From a phage, in sequence record NC_101835.1: a stretch of 64,000 bases of DNA; one strand, 5' to 3'. Shown here piece by piece: positions 8,991 through 64,000 of the stretch. Position 1 is the stretch's first letter. Each line of letters opens with the position of its first letter. The position numbers were made by a program, and so were the translations under genes. The notes under the pieces were generated by a model. It worked only from the letters and a program-made list of their open reading frames with translations, was not told the origin of the DNA and searched no databases.

Positions 8991-9077
8991 TGGTGGGGAG
9001 TGGTGGAGTCGAACCACCCGAGTCGCAATGACAATAGATTTACAGTCTACACCGCTACCTCTACGGGATAACTCCCC
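8991..9077 (-). tRNA. tRNA-Tyr (anticodon GTA), type II
   Basis: 87 nt, acceptor GGGGAGT/ACTCCCC, anticodon loop CTGTAAA, long variable arm, T-arm GTGG-TTCGACT-CCAC, encoded CCA. Confidence 0.75.
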
Positions 9078-9081
9078 AATT

Positions 9082-9156
9082 TGGCACCCCGTACTGGACT
9101 CGAACCAGTGTCAACGGCTTAGAAGGCCGCTGCTTTATCCACTAAGCTAACAGGGC
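9082..9156 (-). tRNA. tRNA-Arg (anticodon TCT)
   Basis: 75 nt, acceptor GCCCTGT/ACGGGGT (two G-U), D-arm GCTT-AGTGGATA-AAGC, anticodon loop CTTCTAA, T-arm ACTGG-TTCGAGT-CCAGT, encoded CCA. Confidence 0.75.
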
Positions 9157-48149: not shown

Positions 48150-48153
48150 TAAT

Positions 48154-48486: not shown

Positions 48487-48881
48487 TGGTAAGCCTATAC
48501 CGTGTTGAGTATAGCTCAGATACTGTATACAACGTAAGAAGCAAAGATCGCAGCGACAGAGTGCAAGAAATGTATGTTCTTGCCGACAGTCCGTTATCTG
48601 CAGCGTTCAAGGCAGGGGCTCTTGCATCTCGTTGGAAATTTGAAGGTGGATCTTTCTATGAAGAAACCCTTGAAGATTCTGTTGTTATTTCTTCTGTAGA
48701 GGTTTCAGATGACTACGAAGGGAAAAAGTTCGTAATGCGGCACCCACACAGCAACATTGCGTACTACTGGGATGTTCTGAACAACGAGTGGACCCCAGAT
48801 CTTCAGAAGGCTACTGTGCTAACACCGTTTTTGGCAGATAAGTTCCCACCAGAAGGTAATTTATCCGCACTGTTTCAGTAA
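48486..48881 (+). CDS. hypothetical protein, paralog family B
   Basis: HPHSNIAYYWDVLNNEWTP segment shared with 46276..46674. Confidence 0.4.
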   Translation: MVSLYRVEYSSDTVYNVRSKDRSDRVQEMYVLADSPLSAAFKAGALASRWKFEGGSFYEETLEDSVVISSVEVSDDYEGKKFVMRHPHSNIAYYWDVLNNEWTPDLQKATVLTPFLADKFPPEGNLSALFQ

Positions 48882-48957
48882 TTTTCTTGCACACAGGTGT
48901 TGACAACGCCAACCCTGTGTGAAATAATACCTTCATCTTAATAAGACAGGGGACCGA

Positions 48958-49218
48958 TTGATGAAGATTAAATTGAAAAACCTTGAAACGGCAGAGATTC
49001 AGGACGGTGTTGATTTCCGTTCTAAAGATGGTGACATCTTAGAGGTAAATATTCCAACCTACGAGCTGATTAAAGGTTTTGGCAACGTTCCGGAAGAGGA
49101 TATTACAGAAATTCTTATGATGTTGATTCTTGACGGAACTGTGTTTGTAGGTGAAGGTGAGAACGCTATTGCAATCCCAGGCCATTTTTATGAAGTAGTT
49201 GACGAAGAGGTGCTGTAA
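48958..49218 (+). CDS. small acidic protein, paralog family A
   Basis: MKIKLKNL..., C-terminal YEVVDEEVL. Confidence 0.4.
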   Translation: MMKIKLKNLETAEIQDGVDFRSKDGDILEVNIPTYELIKGFGNVPEEDITEILMMLILDGTVFVGEGENAIAIPGHFYEVVDEEVL

Positions 49219-49569
49219 ATGAAAGTAGAAATTACCGGTTTTGATGTGAATGTGGTTCCGGAAGATATTTTAGCTAAACTTCCAGAAGGTTTTGGTAACG
49301 GCGTTGTGGTGGATGCTGTTCCTCCTACCAAAGACATTCTGCTGCAGTATGGTGTAGCAGAGGAAGATGTCGATAAAGTTCTTACAATGATGGCAATCGA
49401 TCGTGTTGTCGTTGTTAAAGGTCTCGATAATTTTGAGAGTGATCCCTTGATTATTCGTGGAGATGACTACAAAATCATCGATAATGAAGGCCAAGAGTTC
49501 TATGAACCTTGTGCAGAAGATATTCTTAACTTATTACTGGAAGCAGGTACCGAAGAGGAGGACGAATAA
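49219..49569 (+). CDS. small acidic protein, paralog family A
   Basis: MKVEITGFDV..., VVVVKGLD, acidic tail. Confidence 0.4.
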   Translation: MKVEITGFDVNVVPEDILAKLPEGFGNGVVVDAVPPTKDILLQYGVAEEDVDKVLTMMAIDRVVVVKGLDNFESDPLIIRGDDYKIIDNEGQEFYEPCAEDILNLLLEAGTEEEDE

Positions 49570-49898
49570 TGAAGATTGACCCGTTACTGAAGGCTCGTGC
49601 AGAAAAAGCGTACACCATTAAGCTGACCAACCTGGTTCCTACTTGTCATCCAGATGTAGGTTGGCCTGAAGGTCTGGTAGAGGGGACTGTAACAGCTGCA
49701 TACCTCCCTAACATCAAATACCTCATGGAAATCTTGGAGCTGGATGAGGAAACGGCAGAAGAGTTCCAGTTGGACATGAAACAAAGTGGGACTCTGGTTA
49801 TTCACGGGTGGTACAATACTAGAGATGCAGAAGACCCTCTGGTAACTTCTAATCTGGCATATGAAATCTTAGGGCCTTTGAACCTGGAGGAAGACTAA
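49569..49898 (+). CDS. small acidic protein, possible family A member
   Basis: Coupled ORF; acidic; YEILGPL near C-terminus. Confidence 0.35.
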   Translation: MKIDPLLKARAEKAYTIKLTNLVPTCHPDVGWPEGLVEGTVTAAYLPNIKYLMEILELDEETAEEFQLDMKQSGTLVIHGWYNTRDAEDPLVTSNLAYEILGPLNLEED

Positions 49899-50185
49899 TG
49901 AAAGATCTGGTTAAGATTAAGATTAAAGATACCAATGGAGAACTCAGTCATTTTGGAATTAATGATGGTGACGAGCTGATCGCACACCTGCCTACCAAGG
50001 AGGTTGTAAGCAAAGCAGTTGCCGGAGAAGAAGCTGCAATGCAGGCTGCAGGTGTGGATGAAAACTATGTAGCTATGTGCATGTGCCGAGATCAGGTTGT
50101 TCTGTATAAAGCGTATCGACCAAACGGAGCCACGGAGTGGCTTGTATTCCGACCCGAAGGATATGAAATCTTAGAGGCACTATGA
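49898..50185 (+). CDS. small acidic protein, possible family A member
   Basis: Coupled ORF; C-terminal YEILEAL. Confidence 0.35.
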   Translation: MKDLVKIKIKDTNGELSHFGINDGDELIAHLPTKEVVSKAVAGEEAAMQAAGVDENYVAMCMCRDQVVLYKAYRPNGATEWLVFRPEGYEILEAL

Positions 50186-50274
50186 TAAATCTTGCCAAGG
50201 TTGCAACGGCACTGTTAGTTATTTGCTGGTCTGTAACCTTAACACTGTGTCTTGTATTTCAGTGAGGTGCTTGT

Positions 50275-50538
50275 ATGAACATCCTGATGTGGGTTATAGC
50301 AGTGGCGTTTGTTGCATGTTTTTGCTGCTGGGTTGCGGTGAGGATTTCTGTAGCTACCCTTCGGAAGTTGGGGTTCTCAGAATGGGATATTAATATCCTT
50401 TCTTTTCGCAATGAAACAATCTCAGCCGCCCTGCTTTGTAAGAAATTTAAGTGGGAACCTTGTGAGGTCATGAGCTATCTAAGAACAGGCGATATCCCTG
50501 AAAGATTTAAAAAAGTTCTTGACGGCAAGGATAAATGA
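50275..50538 (+). CDS. small membrane protein (87 aa)
   Basis: N-terminal TM helix. Confidence 0.35.
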   Translation: MNILMWVIAVAFVACFCCWVAVRISVATLRKLGFSEWDINILSFRNETISAALLCKKFKWEPCEVMSYLRTGDIPERFKKVLDGKDK

Positions 50539-50693
50539 CAGTATAGTGACTAACAAGAGGTGAGGAATGACTGATTTTACTGAAGCTTTAATGATGGCCT
50601 TGTCTGTTTTAGCGCTATCGGTGTGTTTTGGGGCGTTATTCACATCTCTGGTTAAAGTTTTACATACAGTATTATTACCCAAGGAGCGCAGTA

Positions 50694-50945
50694 ATGACGA
50701 AGATTGACTTAAATGCTGGAGACCATGTTGTTGTCAAATGCATCGGAGATTATCTTGGATTCACAATCGGCAATACTTACGAGGCGGTAGTGGCGAAGGT
50801 TTACCATGATAAAGTCCTCAGTCTTGTATTTGACTGCGATGATGATGGGGATGACCGATACGTCTGTGAGGTGCTGGCACGAGACGATAGTGAAGACCAG
50901 AAATTCCTGGTTATTGAACTGAACGGTATTTTTGTAGAACGTTAA
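50694..50945 (+). CDS. hypothetical protein (83 aa)
   Basis: Internal ATG of ORF 50628..50945 with AAGGAG RBS. Confidence 0.35.
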   Translation: MTKIDLNAGDHVVVKCIGDYLGFTIGNTYEAVVAKVYHDKVLSLVFDCDDDGDDRYVCEVLARDDSEDQKFLVIELNGIFVER

Positions 50946-50973
50946 TTTAAAACAACATAAGGAGACTCTTACT

Positions 50974-51279
50974 ATGGCTAAATCTAAAGTTGAACTGTTC
51001 ACCTCTCTTCCTTCTGACACTGCAGAGCGTGATCGCCTTCGCAAAACAATCGAAGAACTGGTAGAACTCCAACTTCAGATTAAAGATCTGAAAGATGCCA
51101 TTAAGGATATCATTCTCGTTGAGAAGCAGGATCACCTGTATTCTCCTAAATTCATCAAATCTCTGGTGGCTACCGAGTTCGATATTCGCTATGAGGCTGA
51201 AAAACGTCGCGCTAAAATCGAAGAAGAGGTTGAGCACATGTCTGAGGCAGACATTCTGTTCAAACGCTCTGTAGAATAA
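50974..51279 (+). CDS. hypothetical coiled-coil protein (101 aa)
   Basis: AAGGAGA RBS; followed by strong terminator. Confidence 0.4.
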   Translation: MAKSKVELFTSLPSDTAERDRLRKTIEELVELQLQIKDLKDAIKDIILVEKQDHLYSPKFIKSLVATEFDIRYEAEKRRAKIEEEVEHMSEADILFKRSVE

Positions 51280-51285
51280 TGACAA

Positions 51286-51312
51286 AGAGGGGGGCTTGGG
51301 CCCCTCTTTTTA
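51286..51312 (+). terminator. rho-independent terminator
   Basis: AGAGGGG-ggcttggg-CCCCTCT then TTTT. Confidence 0.55.
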
Positions 51313-51334
51313 CTATCTATGAAGGAGATTTGAG

Positions 51335-51661
51335 ATGGGTATACCGATTACTGTAAAAGAGCTAAATGAACGTGATGCAGGTGGTCTATGGCCTGCACGA
51401 AAAATCCGCTGCGTCTATATGAAAGAGAATCTTGAACATCTTGATCAACAGATAAAGGTCGGCGATATTTTCGAGGTCTTCTATTCCAATCGGCGCAACT
51501 GGGAAACCATTCAGCCTTCTGGTTTTGTTCTTGCCAAACTTGACACTGGAGAAGTGATTATCCCTGGGTTGGATATTGTCTTCGAAATTATCCAAGAGTG
51601 GGATCCGGATAAGATTAGATACGAAGAATTATTCGGTAAAGGTATTATCAAACCTGTGTGA
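51335..51661 (+). CDS. hypothetical protein (108 aa)
   Basis: GAAGGAGA RBS. Confidence 0.4.
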   Translation: MGIPITVKELNERDAGGLWPARKIRCVYMKENLEHLDQQIKVGDIFEVFYSNRRNWETIQPSGFVLAKLDTGEVIIPGLDIVFEIIQEWDPDKIRYEELFGKGIIKPV

Positions 51662-51969
51662 GGTGGATTATGTCTACAAAGGCGGCTAAATACTCCTATA
51701 TGCCATCAACCTCTGCAGAGGTAGACTTTAGTTTCGATGTGTTTCCACTGTTTGAGGTGGTTCTGGCATACCCAACAATACTAACTACTCCTGAATCACT
51801 TGTGCCTGTTAAGTTGCAGAACGCTATGCATTCTATGCACTACAACAATAAATGTAGGCACAGATGGTGTCAGGACGAGGAAAAAGATTTGGATAGTTTG
51901 AGAGATTTTGACAGTCACCTTTTGACACCTTTTAGCTACTCCAACCTTGATAAGCCCTCATGGGTATAG
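51658..51969 (+). CDS. hypothetical protein (103 aa)
   Basis: Coupled ORF. Confidence 0.35.
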   Translation: MRWIMSTKAAKYSYMPSTSAEVDFSFDVFPLFEVVLAYPTILTTPESLVPVKLQNAMHSMHYNNKCRHRWCQDEEKDLDSLRDFDSHLLTPFSYSNLDKPSWV

Positions 51970-51993
51970 CAAAATATCAAATTTAAGACACCT

Positions 51994-52020
51994 AGGACGC
52001 TCTGTGGCGTCCTTTTCTTT
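51994..52020 (+). terminator. rho-independent terminator
   Basis: AGGACGC-tctgtg-GCGTCCT then TTTTCTTT. Confidence 0.5.
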
Positions 52021-52182
52021 GTCTGGTGCACGATTGCATACCTTGGACAGATAATCTCGTTACAGAGCGTTTAAGAGCTTCCTACAAACAACTCCATATT
52101 TCGAGCGTAGCGAGAACGCACGTCCGTTTTGACCCAAATCACCATACGCTCGGATTTTAACCAAACCCTCGCGGCGTTTCTA

Positions 52183-52217
52183 TTGACACATTACAGCTCC
52201 AGTGATAATATCCACAC
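52183..52217 (+). promoter_or_regulatory. sigma70-like promoter
   Basis: TTGACA-N17-TAATAT. Confidence 0.4.
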
Positions 52218-53800: not shown

Positions 53801-54339
53801 TACCACGATTTTGACCTGACCTACAGGGAGGCCCGAAGGGTCTAGCTTTCAGCTAGAGTCCTTGCAGGACCTACAGGAGCGCTGCCAGGCGGACGGAATG
53901 GGAATACTTCTCATTCTTATAACAATTCTCAAATATCGAGGCAGTGAGAGAAATTAATAGGCCAGGCCGTTCACACAGTGGCACAACATTTGCAACCTAT
54001 TTTGTGTGGATGAATGAGAATACCTATCATTATGAGAATAGTTATCATTACTGGCAATTTAACATAATACCCATTATGCGCACCACTGGCGATCCATACA
54101 GGGATTGATAACATGAGTTACTGTTTACGCATATAACAATTATATTTATTACTATTTGTGTTGGGTATAGTTAGCAGCCGATAGATTAGATATTGACCTG
54201 CAGACTTCCAACTGTCTAGACGTCTAAACGCCCACACAGCAAGGATTATACATACACAACTGAATGTAAACAGGGCCGCAAAAATGCTACCATACCAGAT
54301 TGTAAATTTTTCATGCAGCACTTGACAAAGAGGAGGAAA

Positions 54340-54760
54340 ACTTGTCTGACATACTGTGACATAATATGACATAATAGTGACACACTGGGCATACTCAACA
54401 CTGGATACAATAACAATTGTTACTATTGCATGCCTCACTGTTCACGCATAGATGATAAGCCATGCCATTCGTTTGCATGACAATAATTAACTTGTTTACA
54501 ATCTTTCACTGGCTATGCCAGGTGACCTTTGGTCACCCCTTCGGGTGTTTCTATGACATAATATAAAAGCAGGGCAACTATTAGAAGATCTATAGTTGCC
54601 TTGCTTGTTATGTCATGATTAACTAAATACAAGGCAACTATGATCTGATTAATAGATTGCAGACAAACTATCACGGGGGTGATGGTTACTGCTTTTATAT
54701 TATGTCGCGACTCCGTCGCGCCATGCCATTCGTTTGCATAGTTGCCTTATTGTTACAGGT
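54340..54760. repeat. iteron/palindrome cluster, candidate replication origin or regulatory hub
   Basis: Tandem TGACATAAT-type 10-bp repeats (~54343-54375) plus inverted copies near 54553 and 54688; 20-bp direct repeat CCATGCCATTCGTTTGCAT at 54462 and 54722; palindrome GGCAACTAT...ATAGTTGCC. Confidence 0.5.
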
Positions 54761-55350: not shown

Positions 55351-55380
55351 GCAGACAAAAAGAAAGGGGCCTAAGCCCCT
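55351..55380 (-). terminator. rho-independent terminator for minus-strand block (possibly bidirectional)
   Basis: AGGGGC-ctaa-GCCCCT hairpin; T-run on minus strand after the stop of gene 55400..55819. Confidence 0.5.
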
Positions 55381-55399
55381 TGATAATTCAGTTAAAAAA

Positions 55400-55819
55400 T
55401 TATAATGATTCGTATATTTCAAAAATCCGATTTGCCAGGTCGTTACGGTAGCGGAATTTTTCCTCACGTTTGATCATAAGATCTTTATAGCCGTACTCTT
55501 TAAGCACTTCATTAACTTTATGGCGGCATACTTTCATATTATCCTGCGCGTCACCAATAAATCTGTTGCTATGGTGCATGGCTTTAATTTCTTCTTCCAG
55601 GACCAGGGCAACTATGCGGACCGGATCAAGCTGATAGGCGGTAACATCCATGCGGCATTGTAAACGGCTTTTTACGTCTGCCACCGGATATACTGCAACC
55701 TCTTCCCCGTCAACATTGACAATAATTAGTTTACCATCGATTTCGAATCCTTTCGCCGCCGGACCGTGACAAAAAGCGTTATCAAAGCTATATGCCGGAT
55801 TATTAGATTTAATGTTCAT
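55400..55819 (-). CDS. hypothetical protein (139 aa)
   Basis: AAGAGGTAAA RBS. Confidence 0.45.
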   Translation of the reverse strand: MNIKSNNPAYSFDNAFCHGPAAKGFEIDGKLIIVNVDGEEVAVYPVADVKSRLQCRMDVTAYQLDPVRIVALVLEEEIKAMHHSNRFIGDAQDNMKVCRHKVNEVLKEYGYKDLMIKREEKFRYRNDLANRIFEIYESL

Positions 55820-55963
55820 GGTGTTTTTACCTCTTAGTTAATTTTCTTACAACTTCCCTTCAAAAAAGAATATAGCAAAACTGCCGATCCCTGTCAACCA
55901 GGGATAGCATAATTTTTATGTGATCAAGGGGCTTTATTGCCCCTGACCATGTAACTTGTTGTA

Positions 55964-56227
55964 TTATTTGTTGCTCATCCAGTTTTCCCAAGCTGCCTGA
56001 TAATCTGCCTCACTACGGCGGATCTCTTCTTGCTCTTCAAGGCGGATCTCTTCTTCCAGGTACCCCAAGATGTCAGCCTTTTTAGTCTGGCGCAGCATCC
56101 AGTCATCTTTTTTGCGAGTGAAGATCTTATAAGCTTTCTCGCAAACCTCTTTTTTGCTACCTTTCTGGACTTCAAGAACACGATAAGCCATATATTGAAC
56201 TAATTTGAGCTGATCAAGACGTTTCAT
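55964..56227 (-). CDS. hypothetical protein (87 aa)
   Basis: AAGAGGTAAA RBS. Confidence 0.4.
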   Translation of the reverse strand: MKRLDQLKLVQYMAYRVLEVQKGSKKEVCEKAYKIFTRKKDDWMLRQTKKADILGYLEEEIRLEEQEEIRRSEADYQAAWENWMSNK

Positions 56228-56287
56228 GATGTTTACCTCTTTGTGCGGTTCTGATTAGTGGGCCTTTTGGCCCGTGTCATTATCTTA

Positions 56288-56560
56288 TTACTTATGGCGG
56301 CAGAATTCAAGCGTTTTTAATTGATAATCTTCCTCAGCTTGGAGTACGACCGCCTCGATCATTTCGTTGGCATTGTTAAAGCCATAACCTTTAGCGAACT
56401 CATCCGCGCCACCTTCGTGATCATGTTCTGCGTTCATCGCTTCCACAAAATGGAATTCCAAATTGTTGAGGTAGGGGCTTGATGTTCCGTCCTCTTTTTC
56501 GATGAGATCCCAAATAGCATTAAAACGTGATTCGACTTCTTGATTAATCCAGCTTGACAT
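56288..56560 (-). CDS. hypothetical acidic protein (90 aa)
   Basis: 5' UTR hairpin GGGGCAAAAGTGCCC then GGAGAGAGGAA RBS. Confidence 0.4.
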   Translation of the reverse strand: MSSWINQEVESRFNAIWDLIEKEDGTSSPYLNNLEFHFVEAMNAEHDHEGGADEFAKGYGFNNANEMIEAVVLQAEEDYQLKTLEFCRHK

Positions 56561-56771
56561 AGTGTTTTCCTCTCTCCTGGTTGTTGTGTGGGCACTTTTG
56601 CCCCTTCAAGATAAATGTTACCCCACCCCATGGCAGATGTCAACGGTTTTTATAGTTCTTATATGACAGGCAGGCCCGGTGATTGTCTCCCCCCGTCGCC
56701 AGGTGCCTGCCGTGAAACAAGTATAACAAAAAACAGGACCATTGCAAGCCCTGTTTTGTAGTTTATAAATA

Positions 56772-56963
56772 TTATATTTTTTCGCCTATGTAGTCCGGTC
56801 GGTTTTTCTCTGTCATGCGCTTTAGCAATTCTTGCATGTTGCTTATGGCTTGTAGTGTATCCCCTTCCAGGCTTGAATCGACATAATCAGGATCGTCTAT
56901 GACCTTTCTATGATTATGATAACGCAGTACCGCCAATACCTTTCTGACTTGTTCGATATTCAT
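56772..56963 (-). CDS. hypothetical protein (63 aa)
   Basis: ORF on block strand. Confidence 0.3.
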   Translation of the reverse strand: MNIEQVRKVLAVLRYHNHRKVIDDPDYVDSSLEGDTLQAISNMQELLKRMTEKNRPDYIGEKI

Positions 56964-57112
56964 TTTTACCGCTCTTTAAAACAAGGTGCCAACCGTTTCC
57001 AATAGATCACTGACTGCCAGGACAATACCGATCAGCACATATCTAACCATAAGGGGAAAGAGCGCCAATATTGCCACCACAATCCCCAAGGTGATAATTA
57101 TCTTTCTCATGG

Positions 57113-57406
57113 TTAACGGTTCACGTAAGTTTTCCCGTTCACGGTTATGGGCAGATCCTCCAGGTCTGGATCTTCCTTAAGGTCGCGAGCAAGCTCACCG
57201 CACCGGATACCCTCGAATCCGTAGTACTCTGTTGTGCCGTCCTTAAAAGTTTTAGCGGCAAGGCATAAGCGATAAGTAACCCCGATTTGATTGACGGCAT
57301 GAATATCCGTTAGATTAACCTCTTTTGCCAGCTCTTTAGCCATTACAGGCGCATTAAGTCCAACAACCAGGGCAACCACTGCGATCATCTTTTTCATTGT
57401 GTCCAT
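57113..57406 (-). CDS. small secreted/periplasmic protein (97 aa)
   Basis: AAGAGGA RBS; N-terminal signal peptide MKKMIAVVALVVGLNAPVMA. Confidence 0.4.
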   Translation of the reverse strand: MDTMKKMIAVVALVVGLNAPVMAKELAKEVNLTDIHAVNQIGVTYRLCLAAKTFKDGTTEYYGFEGIRCGELARDLKEDPDLEDLPITVNGKTYVNR

Positions 57407-57488
57407 CCTCTTTCTGCTACGTTTAAGGCGGCGGTAACCGCCTGTTTATGCTTTGTTGGTTAATTTTCGGGTATAGGTATAAATTAAA

Positions 57489-57704
57489 CTATGCTGTACG
57501 CTCAACTATAACAACGGCTTGAGGGATCTCACCTTCAACCACTATCAAGGCTTTTTTCTGCGTGATAGATATCTTTACCCGCTTCAGCGTGGCGGTAAAA
57601 TCTTTCATTTCGTCACGTGGTGTTTTAGTGCAATACCAGATCTCAGGCTTGCCGATCTGTAAGTTGCGTAAAAATTCTGTTTTGCCTGTTTTGTTAGTGA
57701 TCAT
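57489..57704 (-). CDS. hypothetical protein (71 aa)
   Basis: GGTGAGG RBS. Confidence 0.35.
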   Translation of the reverse strand: MITNKTGKTEFLRNLQIGKPEIWYCTKTPRDEMKDFTATLKRVKISITQKKALIVVEGEIPQAVVIVERTA

Positions 57705-57712
57705 TTGGCAAC

Positions 57713-57817
57713 CTCACCCGATACCGTTGGAAGACAAGATCGCATTAGCCATGGTTGCAATCAGGCCAATACCCAGGGCAATAACCAAGATCACTGCATC
57801 GATTAATTTCTGTTTCA
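57713..57817 (-). CDS. small hydrophobic peptide (34 aa), tentative
   Basis: Minus-strand ATG..TGA encoding MKQKLIDAVILVIALGIGLIATMANAILSSNGIG; below ORF-track cutoff. Confidence 0.25.
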
Positions 57818-57895
57818 TGGTGTTTATTCTCTTCTGTTAGTAACCTTATTCATGGGGCCGCTACCACAGCCCCAAGGTAAGGCAGCTATGTGCTT

Positions 57896-58141
57896 TTAGT
57901 GTTTCATTCCAACCATCGCGGCACGGATCGCCGTAGTGCTGTACTTGAAGCCGTCCGGGGTCTTATCTTGTCCGGTTAGCTCCAGAAAAAGCATCATATC
58001 CCGCGCCGCATCATTACGATTAGCATTGGCGTTAATAAAGCCTTGGGCCAACCGGTACAATGACTCATCGTTATTAATCCAAAGGCTTACATTCCAATGA
58101 GTTTTGTTTTTGTAACCGTTATAACCTTTATTGCTTTTCAT
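57896..58141 (-). CDS. hypothetical protein (81 aa)
   Basis: AGAGGTAAA RBS. Confidence 0.4.
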   Translation of the reverse strand: MKSNKGYNGYKNKTHWNVSLWINNDESLYRLAQGFINANANRNDAARDMMLFLELTGQDKTPDGFKYSTTAIRAAMVGMKH

Positions 58142-58487
58142 GGTGTTTACCTCTTCTTTGTTCCAGGTGGCGGATCATTCTACCACCTTATGTATTATGC
58201 TTTGTTAGATGGTTGTTTGTTGTCAAACTATTTTACCGATAATCATCATATGCTTTATTTACCTGGCGAATATAACATTCAAAAGCCAAATCAATAGATT
58301 TATATTCACGGATATACTCACCATAGGAAACCACATACATTTCTATAGCTTCCTCATATGCGAGGAGAATAGAATCTAAGCCTACGATCTCAGTCTTTGC
58401 AATAATAGCCATGATTTTTTATCCTCTTTGTGGTTGGTGGGGTTCGTTGCCCCTTTGATTTATATATTACAGTCTTATATGGTCATG

Positions 58488-58721
58488 TCAACTATTTTCA
58501 AAAAATTTTTCTGCTGTGATATTCTTCCCGGTAGGGTTCGCTACTTTCAAAATTTTATCATGCACTGGACGCCCAAAAGAATAAGCGCCGTACACAGTAA
58601 ACCAATAATCGCCGTCAGGTTGTACTATTACTGCCGCATATGGTACGCCTTTTTCGTTTTTGCTGACAAAATAGATCACGTTGCCATTAATAGCCTCGGC
58701 GCGTTTAATTTGTTCCATCAT
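58488..58721 (-). CDS. hypothetical protein (77 aa)
   Basis: AAGAGAGG RBS. Confidence 0.4.
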   Translation of the reverse strand: MMEQIKRAEAINGNVIYFVSKNEKGVPYAAVIVQPDGDYWFTVYGAYSFGRPVHDKILKVANPTGKNITAEKFFENS

Positions 58722-58777
58722 GATGATTTGCCTCTCTTTATTTTCATAATTGGGGGGCCTTTTCGGCCCCGCCAGGT

Positions 58778-59062
58778 TTATTTATTGATAGCGTGCAGCG
58801 GGAAAGGTACGCCAGGTTGATAGATAACCTTTACAACCTCATCAGGACAAAAGAAGTTGCAGAACTCACCGCAATAGGCCTCATCCTCTTTCAACTCTTC
58901 ATCAACATACTCAAAAAAGTAGTCGATGCTTGGATAATCTTGACCAGGGTTATAATCAACCATAGTGAGGACCAGTTCAAGATCATTGCGGATGATATGC
59001 ATACCAGCTTTTAAATACTTCGCTTCCATTTTTACTACATCGCCAGCGGTAACAATAGCCAT
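58778..59062 (-). CDS. hypothetical protein (94 aa)
   Basis: Internal ATG of ORF 58778..59128 with CAGGAG RBS. Confidence 0.35.
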   Translation of the reverse strand: MAIVTAGDVVKMEAKYLKAGMHIIRNDLELVLTMVDYNPGQDYPSIDYFFEYVDEELKEDEAYCGEFCNFFCPDEVVKVIYQPGVPFPLHAINK

Positions 59063-59293
59063 GGTTTTAACTCCTGTTTCTGTTAATGATTGGAGGCATA
59101 ACCCCCCTCGACAACTCTTATTATCCATATTGTAGGGCTTGATGCAAGTACTTCTTTAAAAAAAAAAATTTTTTAAGTGCCTTGGAGGCCGCTGTAACGC
59201 CAAAATAATAAAGGCCATGCAACCGCATAGCCTTTATGTGATTATATCGCTGCAGGCCCTGCTAGGGGCCTTATTTTGCATCATTTGCCGGAA

Positions 59294-59602
59294 CTATACA
59301 GAGAAAACATCGTTCACAATAGCGATCACAATGCCGCCCACCTTGTCACGGTCAACAATGCACAAATCACCATAGATCATGTGGTAGTCTGGATGATCTT
59401 TCACGGAATAGTCAATGAGCGTTTTCTTGTCGTCCAGCTTTGTAACTTCCATTCTCATAACGATATGAGAATCATCAAAGGCATTATTCCGAAAAGTCAT
59501 AGCCTGACCACCAGGGCACCCAGTGATCTCCACTTCCACACCGTCTACGATCTGACCATCAAAGAAATAAAGATTATTAGCCAGGATAAACATGTTTATC
59601 AC
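59294..59602 (-). CDS. hypothetical protein (102 aa)
   Basis: AAGGAGTGAT RBS. Confidence 0.4.
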   Translation of the reverse strand: MINMFILANNLYFFDGQIVDGVEVEITGCPGGQAMTFRNNAFDDSHIVMRMEVTKLDDKKTLIDYSVKDHPDYHMIYGDLCIVDRDKVGGIVIAIVNDVFSV

Positions 59603-59640
59603 TCCTTGTTAACTGCGTGTTATTTTACCACGATTAAAAT

Positions 59641-59684
59641 TTACTTTACTGATGGCCCTGGCGTCAAGGCCATCTAAAAATAAA
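59641..59684. repeat. conserved ~44-nt intergenic element with hairpin GATGGCC...GGCCATC (copy 1 of 2)
   Basis: About 90 percent identical to 63385..63428. Confidence 0.5.
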
Positions 59685-59685
59685 T

Positions 59686-59886
59686 TTACAGGCCTACAAT
59701 CTCTTTGATTCGTTTAACTGCTGCCTCAGCGCCTTGGGGGTAGAAATTATGGTAACCGATCACGCGAGTGATACTAATCGCAGTTTGATGATCTTCATAA
59801 TAGCCCTTGAAGATTTCTTGACCGTCAATCAGCACGGCAATTTTTTCTTCTTTTTTGAAGTTAATAACGCGGATATTGTTGCTCAT
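59686..59886 (-). CDS. hypothetical protein (66 aa)
   Basis: Promoter TTGCAA...TAATAA, hairpin GGGGA-gctaa-TCCCC, GGAGA RBS upstream. Confidence 0.4.
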   Translation of the reverse strand: MSNNIRVINFKKEEKIAVLIDGQEIFKGYYEDHQTAISITRVIGYHNFYPQGAEAAVKRIKEIVGL

Positions 59887-60366
59887 TTTGTTTCTCCTTT
59901 CTGGTTTTTGTGTTGGTGGGGATTAGCTCCCCGTTGATTATTATTATCCATATTTCGGACCGGATTGCAACACCCCGGAAGAAAAATTTTTTGAAAAAGT
60001 TAGGCCCCCAGGGATCGGGGGCCGTTATCAGTTACTTACAGCGATAAAATACATCCCTACGCCTAACAATATTTCAAGGGCGATGATCTCAAGCCATACC
60101 ATAACCCGGCGCACCTTATCGGTGCGGGGCTTATCCTTGGTTGTCATCGTCTCCCCCTTTCATCCTGGTAGTAGTGACGTGGTTTACAATGGCCCCCAGG
60201 AGTACCATCACCACGCACATCACAAGAAAAATTATCTCTGTCGTTGTTCGATCCATTGTTATAAAATTCCTTAAGATCAGGCCTGAAAATAAAGCGTTCG
60301 TTATTGAATCCATCACGCCAGGCGGCTGGCTTCAAATCTTCATCAAAGGGATTAATTAACGTGGTA

Positions 60367-60738
60367 TTATTTAAACGGCTGGCCCACATATTTTCTATTC
60401 CTCTCAAATAGGCGATCCGCCTCAGTTAAACAAATCTCATGGGCGTGATCTCTGGTTTTAGCTTCATCGAAAACCTGTTGTGCAAGGCTGCAGCGTAGGG
60501 AGACTGGAAGATCACTATAATAGGCGTTGACAAATGTTTGCGCGTCATACAGGTCGGAAAATACTTTACCCTTTCTATTATCGCCTTTGTCAACAATTGC
60601 AAGGATAACAAGTACAATAGTTGCAACCACCCCCAGGAAAATAGATATAATAAACCATAAAAAGGCGGATCTACCCATCTTGCCAGCGATCCAGGCGTTA
60701 AACAAGGCAACTAATACGGCCAAAATAATAAATTCCAT
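60367..60738 (-). CDS. membrane protein (123 aa)
   Basis: Internal ATG with AAGAGGTA RBS; two TM helices. Confidence 0.4.
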   Translation of the reverse strand: MEFIILAVLVALFNAWIAGKMGRSAFLWFIISIFLGVVATIVLVILAIVDKGDNRKGKVFSDLYDAQTFVNAYYSDLPVSLRCSLAQQVFDEAKTRDHAHEICLTEADRLFERNRKYVGQPFK

Positions 60739-60802
60739 TCTATGTACCTCTTTTGCAGTTCTGTTTAACAATAAGGCGGCAAATATGCCGCCTGTTACCT
60801 GA

Positions 60803-61183
60803 TTAAAAATTATCGCCGTAAATCTTTCCGCTTTCTGCCCACACCACCACGCGGGGCATACTATCCCACACGTCTTGTTTTAGATTGAGCGCGTGCAATT
60901 CTTCGGTGGTGCCCATACCAGGCACGGGCTGATTGTATACTGCAAAACGACCACCCGCATAGTCATAGGCCAGAGTTAAATCACACTGGATCATCTTTTT
61001 GATCATGGCATTAAGCATGGCGTTAGCCGCATACTGATCACGTTTTAAAGGCAACTCTTTGATTAGTTTGCGATAGTTTTCAATGTGATCGCACACTGTT
61101 TCACGTGGAAGATCTTTCATATCCTCGCGAAAGGTAACCAGGTTAAACATGACGGTGTCAATAGCTTTAGTAGTGTTTTTCAT
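60803..61183 (-). CDS. hypothetical protein (126 aa)
   Basis: ATG at 61183 preceded by promoter TTGCAA-N16-TATATT, hairpin GGGGCAA...TTGCCCC and GAGG RBS; ORF-track extension lies in the 5' UTR. Confidence 0.45.
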   Translation of the reverse strand: MKNTTKAIDTVMFNLVTFREDMKDLPRETVCDHIENYRKLIKELPLKRDQYAANAMLNAMIKKMIQCDLTLAYDYAGGRFAVYNQPVPGMGTTEELHALNLKQDVWDSMPRVVVWAESGKIYGDNF

Positions 61184-61273
61184 GATGTTTTCCTCTTTGT
61201 TTTGTGTGGGGGGCAAACGTCTTGCCCCTTGAGTTTTAATATAGCAGGTTTTTAGATTATTGCAACACTTTAT

Positions 61274-61897
61274 TTATGAAAAACTCATCTCTCCATATTC
61301 ATCCACATCAAACCGCCAATCATTGGCCTCGATAAGGCCGATCAGGTTTTCGGTAGTAAATTGTTCAAGATAAGCTTGCTCCAGGTCTACGTAAACCTTG
61401 CGGGATAGTTCCCGTACGTTCTCGGTGATCAACTCTTCCAGCTCTTCAACCTTACTTTCTTGCTTGGCTGTCAGGTCTAGCCATGTAGTATCGATGTACC
61501 CGCTTACAGTGTTTTCGTGACTATAGCGGCTATATGGATCACGCTCAACACTTGCGGATAGCTCGCCATCGTGCATTGTGCCGAACAAGTGACGAATTGA
61601 GCGGAATTTAGTCAGAGACTTGACTTTACGCAAGAATTTTTCTAAATCCACGTTTTCCGCACTGATTGACGCGCCGTCGCCCTGGCACCAAAAGCCGGAC
61701 CAATGTACCTTGGTATCTTCAAGGCCATACTCTGGAAAGATATGTTCTTTATAGTCTTCAATTACACTTTCTGCAAAAAAGTTATCCCCGCTGTGTTCTT
61801 CTCTTTCGCGGACCATTTCAATAGCTTTTTCTTTTTGTTCATCGGTCAGCACGTCGAAAGATAAATTGTAACCTGTGGTAATGTTAACGGTGGTCAT
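61274..61897 (-). CDS. hypothetical acidic protein (207 aa)
   Basis: Promoter TTGACA-N16-TATACT, UTR hairpin GGCGGGAA...TTCCCGCC, GGAG RBS. Confidence 0.45.
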   Translation of the reverse strand: MTTVNITTGYNLSFDVLTDEQKEKAIEMVREREEHSGDNFFAESVIEDYKEHIFPEYGLEDTKVHWSGFWCQGDGASISAENVDLEKFLRKVKSLTKFRSIRHLFGTMHDGELSASVERDPYSRYSHENTVSGYIDTTWLDLTAKQESKVEELEELITENVRELSRKVYVDLEQAYLEQFTTENLIGLIEANDWRFDVDEYGEMSFS

Positions 61898-61971
61898 GAT
61901 ATTTTCTCCTATTTTCTTTGTTAGTGGCGGGAAGTTTTCCCGCCTGTGTGTTTAAGTATACTTATCGAGAT

Positions 61972-62232
61972 TTACTTGTCAACACTATTTTTTAAATTAT
62001 TGTGGCGCAAAATGCTTAAAATCTCTTCAACGTCATCAACACGGCGGCAATTTTTAAACGCTACCAATTGCCCCATGATTTTAATCACTGGACGGCCTTG
62101 CCAGTGCCCCTGGAGAAAGCGCGCCTTGACTTTATCGGTGGAACTATCACGCCACCAAATGGCCTTGTTATTGCAGTAGTAAAAATTATTCAGGACAACA
62201 TCAACTTTATCAAAATTTTTTAATTTACGCAT
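61972..62232 (-). CDS. hypothetical protein (86 aa)
   Basis: AAGGAAGGAG RBS. Confidence 0.4.
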   Translation of the reverse strand: MRKLKNFDKVDVVLNNFYYCNNKAIWWRDSSTDKVKARFLQGHWQGRPVIKIMGQLVAFKNCRRVDDVEEILSILRHNNLKNSVDK

Positions 62233-62478
62233 GGCGTTTACTCCTTCCTTCTTGCTTTGATGTGGTTAGTATATCCGGACTATTCCAAGGTGTCAAGCTT
62301 TAAATAAAATCACTGTCAATGATATTTTTTAACACCATAAAACGGCCCTGGGTGATGTTTTCAGGTTAATAAAGGGGATTGCATAGGTAGGGGCTTTTGT
62401 GGCGTTTGTGGGGCCAACCAGGGGCGCTATTCGTAGGATAGAAATAAAAAACCCCGCACAATGGCGGGGCGTTGGTTG

Positions 62479-62676
62479 CTATTTGTCTTTGTGGCGGTAT
62501 CGTTCCGCTTGTCGTTCACGTTCCAAAAGCAGGCTGGGTAATTTGCGATCATAGTGATTTCGCCAGATCTTCCCAAATCTTTTCGGCTTATTCAGTTTAT
62601 TGTTACGCTGGCGTCGTTCCGGCAGCTCTTCGGAATCATGAGATCGCTTTACAATCTTCTCAAAATTAATCTTCAT
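62479..62676 (-). CDS. small basic protein (65 aa)
   Basis: Internal ATG with AAGGGGGGAA RBS; Arg/Lys-rich. Confidence 0.35.
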   Translation of the reverse strand: MKINFEKIVKRSHDSEELPERRQRNNKLNKPKRFGKIWRNHYDRKLPSLLLERERQAERYRHKDK

Positions 62677-63019
62677 ATATTCCCCCCTTGCTAACTTCAA
62701 TATTGGCCTGAATAGCCCGGATACGGCGCTTTATAACCTCCTGATCCTTGCAATCATATCCCCAAAAGTCTACGATTTTTGCGCCTCCAGCCTTTAGGCG
62801 GTATAGTGTTTCTTGCATCTTGTAAGCCGGGATCGGTCGCGGTGTTACCTGGTCGCCCTTCTCATTCTTGTACTTGATAATGTAGTCTTCATTGTCGTTG
62901 AATACCCAAAATGGGTATTCTGTGAGCGCGTTGCTCTCTTTTTCGTTTTTAGATTGGATCTTGTTTACAATTAAAGCCGTAGCAATAGCGCCAATAATAA
63001 AACTTGCCCCGCTGATCAT
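62666..63019 (-). CDS. membrane-anchored protein (117 aa)
   Basis: Internal ATG with AAAGGAGAAA RBS; N-terminal TM helix. Confidence 0.4.
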   Translation of the reverse strand: MISGASFIIGAIATALIVNKIQSKNEKESNALTEYPFWVFNDNEDYIIKYKNEKGDQVTPRPIPAYKMQETLYRLKAGGAKIVDFWGYDCKDQEVIKRRIRAIQANIEVSKGGIYED

Positions 63020-63094
63020 GTACTTTCTCCTTTCATTGTGTTGATAAACTATCTTTATAGATGGCCCTGCTACCAGGACCACCGAAAAAACAGC

Positions 63095-63340
63095 TTATTT
63101 GACGATACCGACAAAACAGATCCCGCCTTCCCCTATATAGGCAATATCGGTAATTTTATAATTTGTCAAGATCCGCGTGTTCAGATCATTAATAAAATCG
63201 GTCATCGCGTTGGTGTGGTTGTCTTCCGTGTCTAAGGCATAATCCCAGGTGTAAACCTTTTTACGTCCGAAGCCTTTTACCATGATACGGGCGCTTTTGG
63301 TGTTGGTAGGGGCATAATATTTGGTGATTAGTGCTGCCAT
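63095..63340 (-). CDS. hypothetical protein (81 aa)
   Basis: AGAGGAG RBS. Confidence 0.4.
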   Translation of the reverse strand: MAALITKYYAPTNTKSARIMVKGFGRKKVYTWDYALDTEDNHTNAMTDFINDLNTRILTNYKITDIAYIGEGGICFVGIVK

Positions 63341-63384
63341 GGTTTTAACTCCTCTGAATTAGTTCAGTGTTAACAGTATAAAGT

Positions 63385-63428
63385 TTACTTTATTGATGGC
63401 CCTGAAGTCAAGGCCATCTAAAAATAAT
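63385..63428. repeat. conserved ~44-nt intergenic element (copy 2 of 2)
   Basis: Near-identical to 59641..59684, same position relative to the flanking gene stop. Confidence 0.5.
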
Positions 63429-63429
63429 C

Positions 63430-63771
63430 TTACTCGTTTTCTTCCAGCTCCGCAAGCTCTTCTTTTGCTTCTTCTAACTCTGTCTGTAGTTCCTGGTATT
63501 CTTCATCGTCCTCAATATCCAGGCTGTCGATGTAGTCGCTAAATCCGCAGCGGTAAGCGATAGGATCTAGCTCCTTGAGGATACGCGACGGAAGAAAAGA
63601 AATGTTTCCGATCATAATTTCGCCGTAGATCTCGTCTAACCATTCATCATAGTTTTCGTCGTACTTGTCCTCGTCGATTTCAAAGTTATCGATCTTGTTC
63701 TCAAGGTCTGCGATCTGTTTTTTCAGCGCGGCGATCTGCATAGCTTTTTCTGCGGCGGTCATAGTAGTCAT
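63430..63771 (-). CDS. highly acidic coiled-coil protein (113 aa)
   Basis: Promoter TTGACA-N16-TATACT, UTR hairpin GGGAAAACTTCCC, GGAG RBS; very acidic. Confidence 0.45.
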   Translation of the reverse strand: MTTMTAAEKAMQIAALKKQIADLENKIDNFEIDEDKYDENYDEWLDEIYGEIMIGNISFLPSRILKELDPIAYRCGFSDYIDSLDIEDDEEYQELQTELEEAKEELAELEENE

Positions 63772-63852
63772 GGTGTTTTCTCCTTTTGTGTGCTCTGGGA
63801 AGTTTTCCCGTTTACGTGTTTAAGTATATCGATCTAAGTTAGTTTGTCAATT

Positions 63853-63969
63853 AAAAATTTAAGAAAAATTTTGCAAAACTGTTAGCGCTACTCATTAACA
63901 TTTGCGCCAGGATGTAACCGACAACGCAAACGATAATAGTTACCTTTGTGTATTGGCGTGTAGTGCTCA
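63853..63969 (-). CDS. small hydrophobic peptide (~38 aa), tentative
   Basis: AAGGGGG RBS; hydrophobic; below ORF-track cutoff. Confidence 0.2.
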
Positions 63970-64000
63970 TCTTAAAGCCCCCTTTTTTCGCTTAGTTGAG

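What the first reader, a model, noticed from the sequence alone, without database searches (positions are those of the whole stretch)
55400..64000. Minus-strand small-gene block built from repeated promoter / 5'-UTR hairpin / RBS cassettes
Several genes (starts at 59886, 61183, 61897, 63771) are each preceded by a near-consensus sigma70 promoter (TTGACA or TTGCAA, ~16-17 nt, TATACT or TATATT), then a GC-rich hairpin and a strong RBS; GC hairpins recur in most intergenic gaps. This reads as a host-RNAP-driven early or pre-early module with stabilised leaders. Products are small, often acidic or membrane proteins of unknown function.
Basis: seen in the sequence. Interest (0 to 1): 0.5.

Follow-up and report, generated by a model that had tools for sequence, protein, structure and literature searches.

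The report
Repeated promoter–hairpin–RBS cassettes, phage early block
The end of this rV5-like coliphage genome carries about 25 tiny genes of unknown function, most with their own copy of a short repeated "host promoter – RNA hairpin – ribosome site" cassette; this closely resembles cassettes already described in T4-like phages, so it is real but only moderately new.

Summary
The window is a Vequintavirus (rV5-like; 97.6% identical to phage JES2013). The block corresponds to rV5 ORF164-193.

- **Cassettes.** Six complete cassettes lie on the minus strand: a sigma70 promoter, a GC hairpin starting 9-13 nt after the -10, an SD and an ATG. Shuffles give 0.017. Two looser cassettes also occur.
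- **Hairpins.** Every intergenic gap of 45 nt or more holds a GC hairpin.
- **Promoters.** The hexamers are conserved across 15 relatives while the spacers vary.
- **Strand.** Stems survive indels and loop changes. Their mismatches are mostly G·U on the coding strand, so selection acts on the sense RNA. This evidence is weaker for the promoter-proximal hairpins taken alone.
- **Leaders.** The tract after each hairpin is nearly all A and C and has no U-tract, so these hairpins are not canonical terminators.
- **Wider distribution.** The same geometry recurs in Avunavirus Av-05 and in phAPEC8, which belongs to another subfamily.
- **Gene gain and loss.** Indel junctions between relatives fall inside the cassettes.
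- **Position.** The block starts about 1 kb from the packaged genome end.

The closest known kind is the PeSL cassettes of T4-like phages. The "early, host-RNAP module" reading is well supported. "Stabilised leaders" is plausible but untested and only partly fits. "Pre-early" is not supported. Interest is moderate to low.

The parts
63823..63850 (-). sigma70 promoter TTGACA-N16-TATACT of cassette for gene 63771 (rV5 P192 equivalent)
   Evidence: hexamers conserved in 15 relatives
63797..63809 (-). leader hairpin GGGAAaacTTCCC, starts 13 nt after the -10; followed by the U-free leader agagcacacaaaaggag
61955..61982 (-). sigma70 promoter TTGACA-N16-TATACT for gene 61897 (rV5 P185); 76% identical over 54 nt to the 63850 cassette
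   Evidence: repeat family D3
61926..61944 (-). leader hairpin GGCGGGAAaacTTCCCGCC (8 bp, -14.6 kcal/mol, z -5.2), starts 10 nt after the -10
   Evidence: U·G variant in L013 and a gene-conversion patch in V18
61238..61265 (-). promoter TTGCAA-N16-TATATT (TG-extended) for gene 61183
61210..61228 (-). leader hairpin GGGGCAAgacgtTTGCCCC, starts 9 nt after the -10
   Evidence: compensatory C-G insertion in phage WM and G·U in naam
59943..59970 (-). promoter TTGCAA-N16-GATAAT for gene 59886
59918..59932 (-). leader hairpin GGGGAgctaaTCCCC, starts 10 nt after the -10; leader accaacacaaaaaccagaaaggag has no U
59120..59147 (-). weaker promoter TTGCAT-N16-GATAAT for gene 59062
   Evidence: hexamers invariant in 16 sequences
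59092..59109 (-). leader hairpin, 10 nt after the -10; GGGGG/CCCCC in most relatives and GGAGG/CCTCC in L013 (change on both sides)
58464..58491 (-). promoter TTGACA-N16-TAATAT for gene 58412 (rV5 P174)
58439..58453 (-). leader hairpin GGGGcaacgaaCCCC, 10 nt after the -10
58166..58226 (-). atypical or degenerate cassette for gene 58141: TTGACA, then a 21-nt spacer (17 nt in phage inoa), CATAAT, then hairpin GGTGG...CCACC at 58187..58166
56615..56643 (-). promoter TTGACA-N17-TAACAT for gene 56560 (rV5 P168)
56590..56603 (-). leader hairpin GGGCAaaagTGCCC, 11 nt after the -10
   Evidence: G·U variant in L009
62268..62296 (-). promoter TTGACA-N17-TATACT (rV5 P186) with no leader hairpin
55869..55897 (-). 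promoter TTGACA-N17-TATATT (rV5 P164) with no leader hairpin
63379..63433 (-). class B 55-nt repeat: 10-bp hairpin GATGGCCTTGacttCAGGGCCATC carrying TTGAC (-35-like), with one U·G on the coding strand
   Evidence: family D1; sense -21, antisense -15 kcal/mol
63044..63098 (-). class B repeat, diverged copy (sense -27, antisense -10 kcal/mol)
59635..59689 (-). class B repeat, third copy (a fourth lies beyond the window, in JES2013 at L010 ~880-930)
58754..58770 (-). promoterless intercistronic hairpin GGGGCCgaaaaGGCCCC followed by leader and SD, no U-tract
57854..57873 (-). promoterless intercistronic hairpin with G·U pairs on the coding strand
57426..57443 (-). promoterless intercistronic hairpin; exactly reverse-complemented in some relatives
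56260..56273 (-). promoterless intercistronic hairpin GGGCCaaaaGGCCC; its leader is duplicated on both sides of the extra ORF166 in rV5
55928..55943 (-). hairpin GGGGCaataaaGCCCC; one recombination partner in the deletion of gene 55819 in HdK5
62451..62470 (-). canonical intrinsic terminator (hairpin + TTTTTTATTT)
60774..60793 (-). intrinsic terminator (rV5 t184)
60003..60023 (-). intrinsic terminator (rV5 t181)
59208..59237 (-). intrinsic terminator (rV5 t177); U·G / C-G / U-A covariation among relatives
56730..56757 (-). terminator whose loop and 3' arm carry the promoter TTGCAA-N16-TATACT (56747..56720), a PeSL-like overlap
55364..55381 (-). terminator ending the block (rV5 t164)
55400..63970 (-). 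25 small ORFs (34-207 aa), all in PHROG families of unknown function; only Pfam Phage_1_1 (62676..62479) and DUF7249 (58141..57896) match

Best explanation
**What it is.** This is the terminal ~9 kb of the Vequintavirus early region, transcribed by host RNA polymerase (rV5 ORF164-193). It is assembled from short, repeated, self-contained expression cassettes.

**Layout of a full cassette.**
- An A-rich upstream tract.
- A sigma70 promoter.
- A GC hairpin that begins about 10 nt after the -10, roughly +3/+4 of the transcript.
- A leader made almost only of A and C.
- A strong SD and an ATG.

Other gaps carry the hairpin, leader and SD without a promoter, or a 55-nt hairpin repeat that overlaps a -35-like TTGAC, or an ordinary terminator.

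**Shown.**
- The promoters are under purifying selection.
- The hairpins are kept as structures.
- For the set as a whole, the hairpins are selected in the coding-strand RNA.
- The leader hairpins lack the U-tract of terminators.
- The cassettes are breakpoints of gene gain and loss.

**Inferred.**
- Each hairpin acts as a structural cap at the 5' edge of the ribosome-binding region, 24-35 nt before the ATG.
- It keeps the A/C leader and SD unpaired whatever lies upstream.
- It obstructs 5'-end-dependent RNase E/RppH decay, or RNase E scanning, into the cistron.
- Each small gene is therefore expressed autonomously and early.
- The conserved cassette parts also act as homology linkers for modular shuffling, as proposed for PeSLs.
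For: **Identity and context.**
- 97.6% identity to JES2013; equals rV5 ORF164-193.
- Promoters and terminators were already predicted here for rV5.
- The 459-bp terminal repeat of HdK5 maps to window 53888-54346.

**Cassette excess and localisation.** 6 cassettes against 0.017 in shuffles, on the minus strand only.

**Promoter footprint.** 7/84 hexamer columns vary against 36/113 spacer columns.

**Hairpin retention.** Stems persist through indels, loop replacement and changes on both sides. Examples are GGGGG/CCCCC versus GGAGG/CCTCC, an added C-G pair in phage WM, and an exactly inverted hairpin.

**Strand.**
- Under strand-symmetric scoring, interior mismatches are G·U on the coding strand at 15 element/position combinations, roughly 12 sites. 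A·C occurs at 1.
- Class B hairpins fold at -20 to -27 kcal/mol in sense and -10 to -18 in antisense.

**Leaders.**
- Composition is A 60%, C 28%, G 7%, U 5%. The block averages 32/20/23/25 (U depletion p=3e-8).
- In the predicted leaders the hairpin is the only notable structure; at most a 2-3-bp helix touches the SD or AUG.

**Fixed geometry in three lineages with unrelated stems.** The spacing from -10 to hairpin is 9-13 nt with a mode of 10, here, in Av-05 and in phAPEC8.

**Indel junctions inside cassettes.** They fall at -35/-35, RBS-ATG, hairpin/hairpin and a duplicated leader.

**Literature.** An RNase E scanning-obstacle model is described in the abstract of PMC11194081.
Against: - No transcription-start, half-life or reporter data exist for this phage group in the library searched.
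- With a start 7-8 nt after the -10, the 5' tail would be 2-6 nt. That is enough for RppH and RNase E, so classic 5'-terminal protection would be partial at best.
- Four of eight leader hairpins are only 4-5 bp, at -5.5 to -6.5 kcal/mol, and do not differ from shuffles when folded alone.
- For the promoter-proximal hairpins alone the strand test is thin. There are 4 G·U against 1-2 A·C, and antisense folds are as stable or slightly more stable because the flanks become G/U-rich.
- Two strong promoters in the block (62296, 55897) and several further upstream have no hairpin, so the hairpin is not required for expression.
- Intergenic breakpoints are partly expected anyway, because only gene-sparing indels survive.
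Confidence: 0.6

Rival explanations
1. The hairpins are attenuators or terminators, as the PeSL authors proposed. They damp read-through from upstream promoters so that each gene is driven mainly by its own promoter.
For: - One PeSL stem-loop reduced lacZ expression as strongly as the rrnB T1 terminator in vivo (PMC2839356).
- Annotators of phages Murica, Alma and HdK5 labelled some of these hairpins as terminators.
- The block does contain six real terminators.
Against: - The leader hairpins lie downstream of their own start sites, so they would attenuate their own transcripts equally.
- The 8+ nt after each leader hairpin hold almost no U, about 5% overall. A U-tract is a defining part of intrinsic terminators (established knowledge).
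- Several stems are only 4-5 bp.
Confidence: 0.17
2. The hairpins work on the opposite strand, as terminators that stop antisense transcription from entering each promoter.
For: - On the plus strand the A-rich spacer becomes a T-rich tail. The scan calls five of them terminator-like on the plus strand: 61926, 61207, 59912, 58439 and 57426.
- Antisense folds of class A elements are as stable as sense folds, or slightly more so.
Against: - Mismatches in stems are G·U on the coding strand, which would be A·C in antisense RNA: 15 against 1.
- There is no excess of plus-strand promoters inside the block.
- The A-rich spacer is equally explained as an AT-rich discriminator and initial transcribed region.
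- The fixed distance to the downstream ATG has no meaning in antisense.
Confidence: 0.06
3. The hairpins are binding sites for a regulator. Candidates are a nut/boxB- or put-like element that modifies RNA polymerase, or an operator for a phage protein that shuts off early transcription or translation.
For: - Their position just after the early promoters resembles lambda nut and HK022 put (from memory).
- One intercistronic hairpin has a GAAAA loop (58770..58754).
- In phAPEC8 the hairpin sequence is conserved enough for PHIRE to flag it as a repeated motif.
Against: - Loop sequence and length (3-7 nt) and stem length (4-8 bp) differ between cassettes and between orthologues.
- No boxA-like sequence lies on the coding strand of the block.
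- There is no Rfam match.
- The variable half-site spacing argues against a dimeric DNA operator.
Confidence: 0.05
4. The hairpins have no function of their own. They ride along with duplicated cassettes, or are scars of recombination at quasi-palindromes.
For: - The cassettes are paralogous repeats.
- Gene conversion has occurred between them in V18.
- Loop inversions at four hairpins show that the palindromes are mutationally active DNA.
- Some promoters do without a hairpin.
Against: - The same geometry recurs with unrelated stem sequences in three lineages.
- Stems are kept through changes on both sides and through indels.
- Mismatches are biased to G·U.
- The flanking A/C-only composition is highly non-random.
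Confidence: 0.1

Closest known systems
PeSLs (promoter-early stem-loops) of T4-like phages RB49/phi1, PST/T4 and nt-1/KVP40 (Arbiol et al. 2010, PMC2839356; Comeau et al. 2014, PMC4122927)
   Same: Both are short conserved intergenic cassettes. Each has an AT-rich tract, a sigma70-like early promoter, a G-run/C-run stem-loop, and an SD with start codon. Both are clustered in a plastic region of small ORFans and coincide with indels between close relatives. One PeSL subclass places the stem-loop after the -10. Class B elements and the 56757 element here have the stem-loop overlapping the promoter, as in the common PeSL subclasses.
   Different: The phage lineages are unrelated and there is no sequence homology. 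Here the main position is fixed about 10 nt after the -10, inside the transcript, and is followed by an A/C-only leader with no U-tract. Mini-circle formation and terminator activity, which were shown for PeSLs, are untested here.
5'-terminal stem-loop mRNA stabilisers (ompA and papA 5' UTRs; Emory, Bouvet & Belasco 1992, cited in PMC3997798)
   Same: A GC hairpin sits close to the 5' end, followed by an unstructured leader and a strong ribosome-binding site. The hairpin's sequence matters less than its presence.
   Different: The predicted 5' single-stranded tail is 2-6 nt, enough for RppH and RNase E (PMC8833179). Several stems are weak. No 5' ends have been mapped.
Predicted early promoter sets of Vequintavirinae (rV5 Table S4, PMC3606486; Certrevirus CB7/CR3 consensus AAAA(N3)TGTTGAC(N19)TATAAT, PMC7344957)
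   Same: These are the same promoters. P164, P168, P174, P185, P186 and P192 map to this block. They are concentrated among small hypothetical ORFs, and the upstream A-rich/TG context matches.
   Different: Those papers list promoters and terminators separately. They do not describe the leader hairpin, its fixed offset, the A/C leader or the link to indels.
Host-takeover and early modules at phage genome ends (T7 early region, T5 pre-early region, SPO1 terminal-redundancy module) - recalled from memory
   Same: Many small genes of unknown function lie next to a genome terminus, with multiple strong host-type promoters and strong ribosome sites.
   Different: There is no evidence here for stepwise DNA entry. 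The T7 intergenic hairpins are long RNase III sites, whereas these are too short at 4-10 bp.
Morons of lambdoid phages
   Same: Each is an autonomous gene unit with its own promoter and sometimes a terminator.
   Different: Morons are thought to insert by illegitimate recombination without conserved linkers. Here the linkers are conserved and repeated.

Membership tests
PeSL-type cassette | Near-consensus sigma70-like promoter in the intergenic space, preceded by an AT-rich tract | tested here: met
   The -35 is invariant in 15 relatives. Upstream contexts read aaaaatagtgTTGACA and aaataaagtgTTGCAA.
PeSL-type cassette | Adjacent stable stem-loop, often G-run then C-run, at a set position relative to the promoter | tested here: met
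   It lies after the -10 in 7-8 cassettes and overlaps the -35 or promoter in class B and at 56757.
PeSL-type cassette | Upstream stop codon at the 5' edge, SD and start codon at the 3' edge | tested here: met
PeSL-type cassette | Many copies with mutual sequence similarity, clustered in a plastic ORFan region | tested here: met
   families D1-D6, D10, D11; restricted to this block; all ORFs of unknown function.
PeSL-type cassette | Indels between close relatives have junctions in the cassettes | tested here: met
   Four of six examined junction sets lie in the -35, the RBS-ATG, the hairpin or the leader, with microhomology. Only about 15 genomes were sampled.
PeSL-type cassette | Stem-loop acts as a terminator or attenuator | not testable with these tools
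   The sequence argues against it for the leader hairpins, which have no U-tract. Activity needs an experiment.
PeSL-type cassette | Excision as mini-circles | not testable with these tools
   Needs inverse PCR on phage DNA.
5'-terminal stem-loop stabiliser | Hairpin within about 0-2 unpaired nt of the true 5' end | tested here: inconclusive
   The start site is only predicted. A start 7-8 nt after the -10 leaves 2-6 unpaired nt. The requirement is from PMC8833179.
5'-terminal stem-loop stabiliser | Hairpin lengthens mRNA half-life | not testable with these tools
   Needs rifampicin-chase or reporter assays.
Intrinsic (rho-independent) terminator | GC-rich hairpin immediately followed by a U-tract on the transcribed strand | tested here: not met
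   This applies to the leader, promoterless and class B hairpins. It is met for the six separate terminators at 62470, 60793, 60023, 59237, 56757 and 55381.
lambda nut (boxA/boxB) or HK022 put antitermination site | Conserved boxB loop or boxA sequence, or a conserved two-hairpin put fold | tested here: not met
   Loops vary. No boxA lies on the coding strand. No Rfam hit.
RNase III processing site (T7 early type) | Duplex of about 20 bp or more | tested here: not met
   Stems are 4-10 bp. The length criterion is recalled from memory.

The most novel reading that the evidence does not exclude
The hairpin fixed about 10 nt after the -10 in three phage lineages could be a dedicated cis-acting RNA signal rather than a generic stabiliser. 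It might mark early phage transcripts so that they escape a phage-induced host-shutoff nuclease, or it might act on RNA polymerase as it leaves the promoter. The cassettes might also be actively mobilised between unrelated phages. Supporting hints are that the 58141 gene occurs at 84-93% nucleotide identity in jumbo and phi92-like phages, and that a conserved non-coding hairpin at 56711..56669 is shared with phAPEC8.
Probability: 0.08. Interest if true: 0.7.

Novelty: new member of a known kind. Interest (0 to 1): 0.33.

Why it matters
- It extends the PeSL idea beyond T4-like phages to rV5-like and phi92-like phages. The idea is that early-gene regulatory cassettes double as recombination linkers for shuffling small accessory genes.
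- It gives a concrete rule for re-annotating these widely used therapeutic and biocontrol coliphages. Hairpins now labelled "terminator" or "PHIRE promoter" are leader elements.
- It offers a compact natural promoter–hairpin–A/C leader–SD design that could be tested as an expression insulator.
- It does not reveal a new mechanism.

Tried and rejected
- **Transcription data.** I looked for transcription-start or RNA-seq data on Vequintavirinae and found none usable.
- **More relatives.** A scan of IMG/VR with the 207-aa protein added only two close relatives, so I used GenBank phage records instead.
- **Known RNA families.** Rfam gave nothing relevant at gathering or E-value level.
- **Gene function.** All 25 ORFs hit PHROG families of unknown function. 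Pfam matched only Phage_1_1 and DUF7249. NCBIfam and PDB sequence searches gave nothing.
- **First pair tally discarded.** It used the sense-strand fold of the reference, which biases towards sense G·U, and it picked wrong helices. I replaced it with strand-symmetric scoring.
- **The count of structure pairs not run on paralogues.** Hairpin boundaries defined by pairing would make the test circular.
- **Rejected readings.**
  - A DNA operator, because half-site spacing varies and mismatches are G·U-biased.
  - RNase III sites, because the stems are too short.
  - nut-like sites, because there is no boxA and loops vary.
  - "Pre-early", because nothing indicates two-step entry.

Full report
**Identity and context**

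The 8.6-kb block is 97.6% identical to Escherichia phage JES2013. It matches 292 phage records, almost all of them rV5-like Vequintavirus. It corresponds to rV5 ORF164-193. That is the downstream end of the minus-strand transcription unit "10-1-238-164" proposed by Kropinski et al. 2013 (PMC3606486).

That paper already predicted the following in this stretch (Table S4):
- sigma70 promoters P164, P168, P174, P185, P186 and P192;
- terminators t164, t177, t181 and t184.

The promoters as such are therefore not new.

Phage HdK5 is reported to have 458-bp terminal redundancies (PMC6563267). Its record carries an exact 459-bp direct terminal repeat, which maps to window 53888-54346. The block therefore begins about 1 kb from the packaged genome end and is transcribed towards that end.

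**Checking the observation**

All four named genes have the described elements at the stated places.

- A strict definition finds six cassettes on the minus strand of 55400-64000 and none on the plus strand. It required a promoter of at least 9/12, a perfect GC-rich stem starting 5-15 nt after the -10, and SD+ATG within 45 nt.
- The mean in 300 dinucleotide shuffles is 0.017. The other 55 kb of the window hold only two.
- Two further cassettes are looser, at genes 59062 and 58141. In the second, the promoter spacer is 21 nt here but 17 nt in phage inoa.
- Every one of the 18 minus-strand gaps of 45 nt or more has a GC hairpin.
- Promoter-like and terminator-like sites both exceed shuffle expectation: 38 against 22.9±4.8, and 25 against 9.6±3.0.
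- Taken singly, half of the leader hairpins are weak, at -5.5 to -6.5 kcal/mol with z about -1. The signal is their recurrence at a fixed place.

**Anatomy**

The gaps fall into four kinds.

| Kind | Layout | Gene starts or positions |
|---|---|---|
| A | Promoter, 9-13 nt (mostly 10), hairpin, A/C leader, SD, ATG | 63771, 61897, 61183, 59886, 59062, 58412, 56560; atypical 58141 |
| N | Hairpin, leader and SD with no promoter | 58721, 57818, 57397, 56227; also the hairpin at 55943..55928 |
| B | 55-nt repeat in three copies (a fourth just beyond the window), whose 10-bp hairpin carries TTGAC | upstream of 63340, 63019, 59593 |
| T | Ordinary terminator with a U-tract | 62470, 60793, 60023, 59237, 56757, 55381 |

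Other points:
- Promoters at 62296 and 55897 have no hairpin.
- The tract between hairpin and SD in class A is A 60%, C 28%, G 7%, U 5%. The block as a whole is 32/20/23/25 (U depletion p=3e-8).
- The hairpin ends 24-35 nt before the ATG.
- In folds of the predicted leaders the hairpin is the only notable structure. At most a 2-3-bp helix touches the SD or AUG.

**Evidence that the parts are functional**

I compared the block across 15 Vequintavirus loci.

- Promoters: -35 hexamers never vary (0/42 columns), and -10 hexamers vary in 7/42 while staying promoter-like. Spacers vary in 36/113 (p=5e-5).
- Hairpins persist through several kinds of change:
  - G-run indels and complete loop replacement;
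  - changes on both sides, such as GGGGG/CCCCC versus GGAGG/CCTCC at 59062, and an added C-G pair at 61183 in phage WM;
  - exact inversion of the whole hairpin at 57443..57426.
- A scoring scheme that treats both strands alike finds interior stem mismatches that are G·U on the coding strand at 15 element/position combinations. A·C occurs at 1, and other mismatches at 10.
- Class B hairpins are 7-17 kcal/mol more stable as coding-strand RNA than as antisense RNA.
- This points to selection on the sense RNA for the hairpin set as a whole. For class A alone the count is only 4 against 1-2, which is suggestive rather than decisive.

**Conservation of the design**

- Av-05 (Avunavirus) has cassettes with unrelated stems at 10-12 nt after the -10, followed by ACCAACCAAC-type leaders. 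It also has hairpins that enclose the -10.
- phAPEC8 belongs to Stephanstirmvirinae, a different subfamily. It has six cassettes with the hairpin 9-10 nt after the -10.
- In the phAPEC8 GenBank record these hairpins are annotated as "putative promoter determined with PHIRE".
- Other records label similar hairpins "terminator".

**Cassettes as recombination points**

Pairwise comparison shows gene-sized indels. The junctions are shown.

- YP-6 lacks gene 61897. The junction joins the two promoters at the shared AGTGTTG of their -35 regions.
- rV5 lacks gene 58141. The junction lies in the shared RBS-ATGAAA.
- HdK5 lacks gene 55819. The junction lies inside the loops of hairpins 55943 and 55381.
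- The extra ORF166 of rV5 is flanked by duplicated leader sequence.
- Two other insertions are not obviously linked to a cassette.
- V18 carries a 6-nt patch in the 61897 cassette that is identical to the 63771 cassette, which indicates gene conversion between paralogous cassettes.
- Gene 58141 (DUF7249) occurs at 84-93% nucleotide identity in jumbo and phi92-like phages.

**Mechanism**

The leader hairpins are not canonical terminators. They lie after their own start sites and are followed by U-free sequence.

The most likely roles are inferred, not shown:
- a structural cap that isolates an always-open ribosome-binding region from upstream context;
- a hindrance to 5'-end-dependent decay, or to RNase E scanning (PMC11194081 abstract).

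The classic 5'-terminal stabiliser reading fits only partly. The predicted 5' tails are 2-6 nt, and RppH and RNase E need just two or more unpaired nucleotides (PMC8833179).

Four rivals are scored lower, for the reasons given under each:
- an attenuator of read-through;
- an antisense terminator;
- a regulator binding site;
- a non-functional passenger.

**Comparison with known systems**

The closest match is the PeSL cassette of T4-like phages. It has a sigma70 promoter, a stem-loop and an SD in plastic ORFan regions, and it mediates indels. One of its subclasses has the stem-loop after the -10. All sequence-testable PeSL features are met here. Terminator activity and mini-circles cannot be tested with these tools. 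There is no homology to PeSLs, and the dominant geometry and the A/C leader differ.

**Verdict**

- It is a new member of a known kind, of moderate to low interest.

Noticed in passing
window 5636..6478 (-): Rfam group I intron match (RF00028), 50.3 bits, just above the gathering score.
   Followed up: no
window 8432..9156 (-): Cluster of six tRNA genes. One (8589..8687) is called by ARAGORN with a four-base anticodon and scores only 35.5 bits in Rfam.
   Followed up: no
window 53888..54346: This stretch is homologous to the exact 459-bp direct terminal repeat of phage HdK5. The physical genome end probably lies here, inside the ~1.5-kb stretch between the two convergent units that has almost no annotated genes.
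   Followed up: partly
window 56669..56711 (-), with promoter 56720..56747: A 43-nt long hairpin (-23.8 kcal/mol, z -3.0) sits 8 nt after a promoter that is itself embedded in a terminator. The region is 84% conserved in phAPEC8. Two related copies lie on the opposite strand beyond the window (JES2013 L001 ~16230-16290 and ~16385-16410). Its function is unknown.
   Followed up: partly
hairpins at 57426..57443, 62451..62470, 59208..59237, 60774..60793 compared with relatives: In some relatives the loop, or the whole hairpin, is the exact reverse complement of the window's version. This is the signature of template switching at palindromes.
   Followed up: partly
L010 2734-3070 (JES2013, beyond window end) and L020 ~5690-6990 (Av-05): Large non-coding gaps inside the early block contain iteron-like repeats (ctcgatctgtttttcgttt and similar). 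They could mark a replication origin.
   Followed up: no
search hits H16-H20, H24, H25 and others (MG0656xx records): 23 records named 'Campylobacter phage' are about 95% identical to this E. coli rV5-like sequence and carry no annotation. They are probably mislabelled or contaminant assemblies.
   Followed up: no
window 61274..61897 (-): The 207-aa acidic protein has relatives in jumbo phages, where one record calls it a 'YeeU-like antitoxin'. No Pfam, NCBIfam or PDB sequence match supports any function.
   Followed up: partly
L005 (phage V18), orthologue of 59092..59109: The leader hairpin is replaced by a run of about 17 G. This may be a sequencing or assembly artefact at a G-run.
   Followed up: no
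window ~46500-52200 (+): The small-gene block on the other side of the terminus has sigma70-like promoters (rV5 P144-P162). It has almost no leader hairpins, with one strict cassette at 51248.
   Followed up: partly
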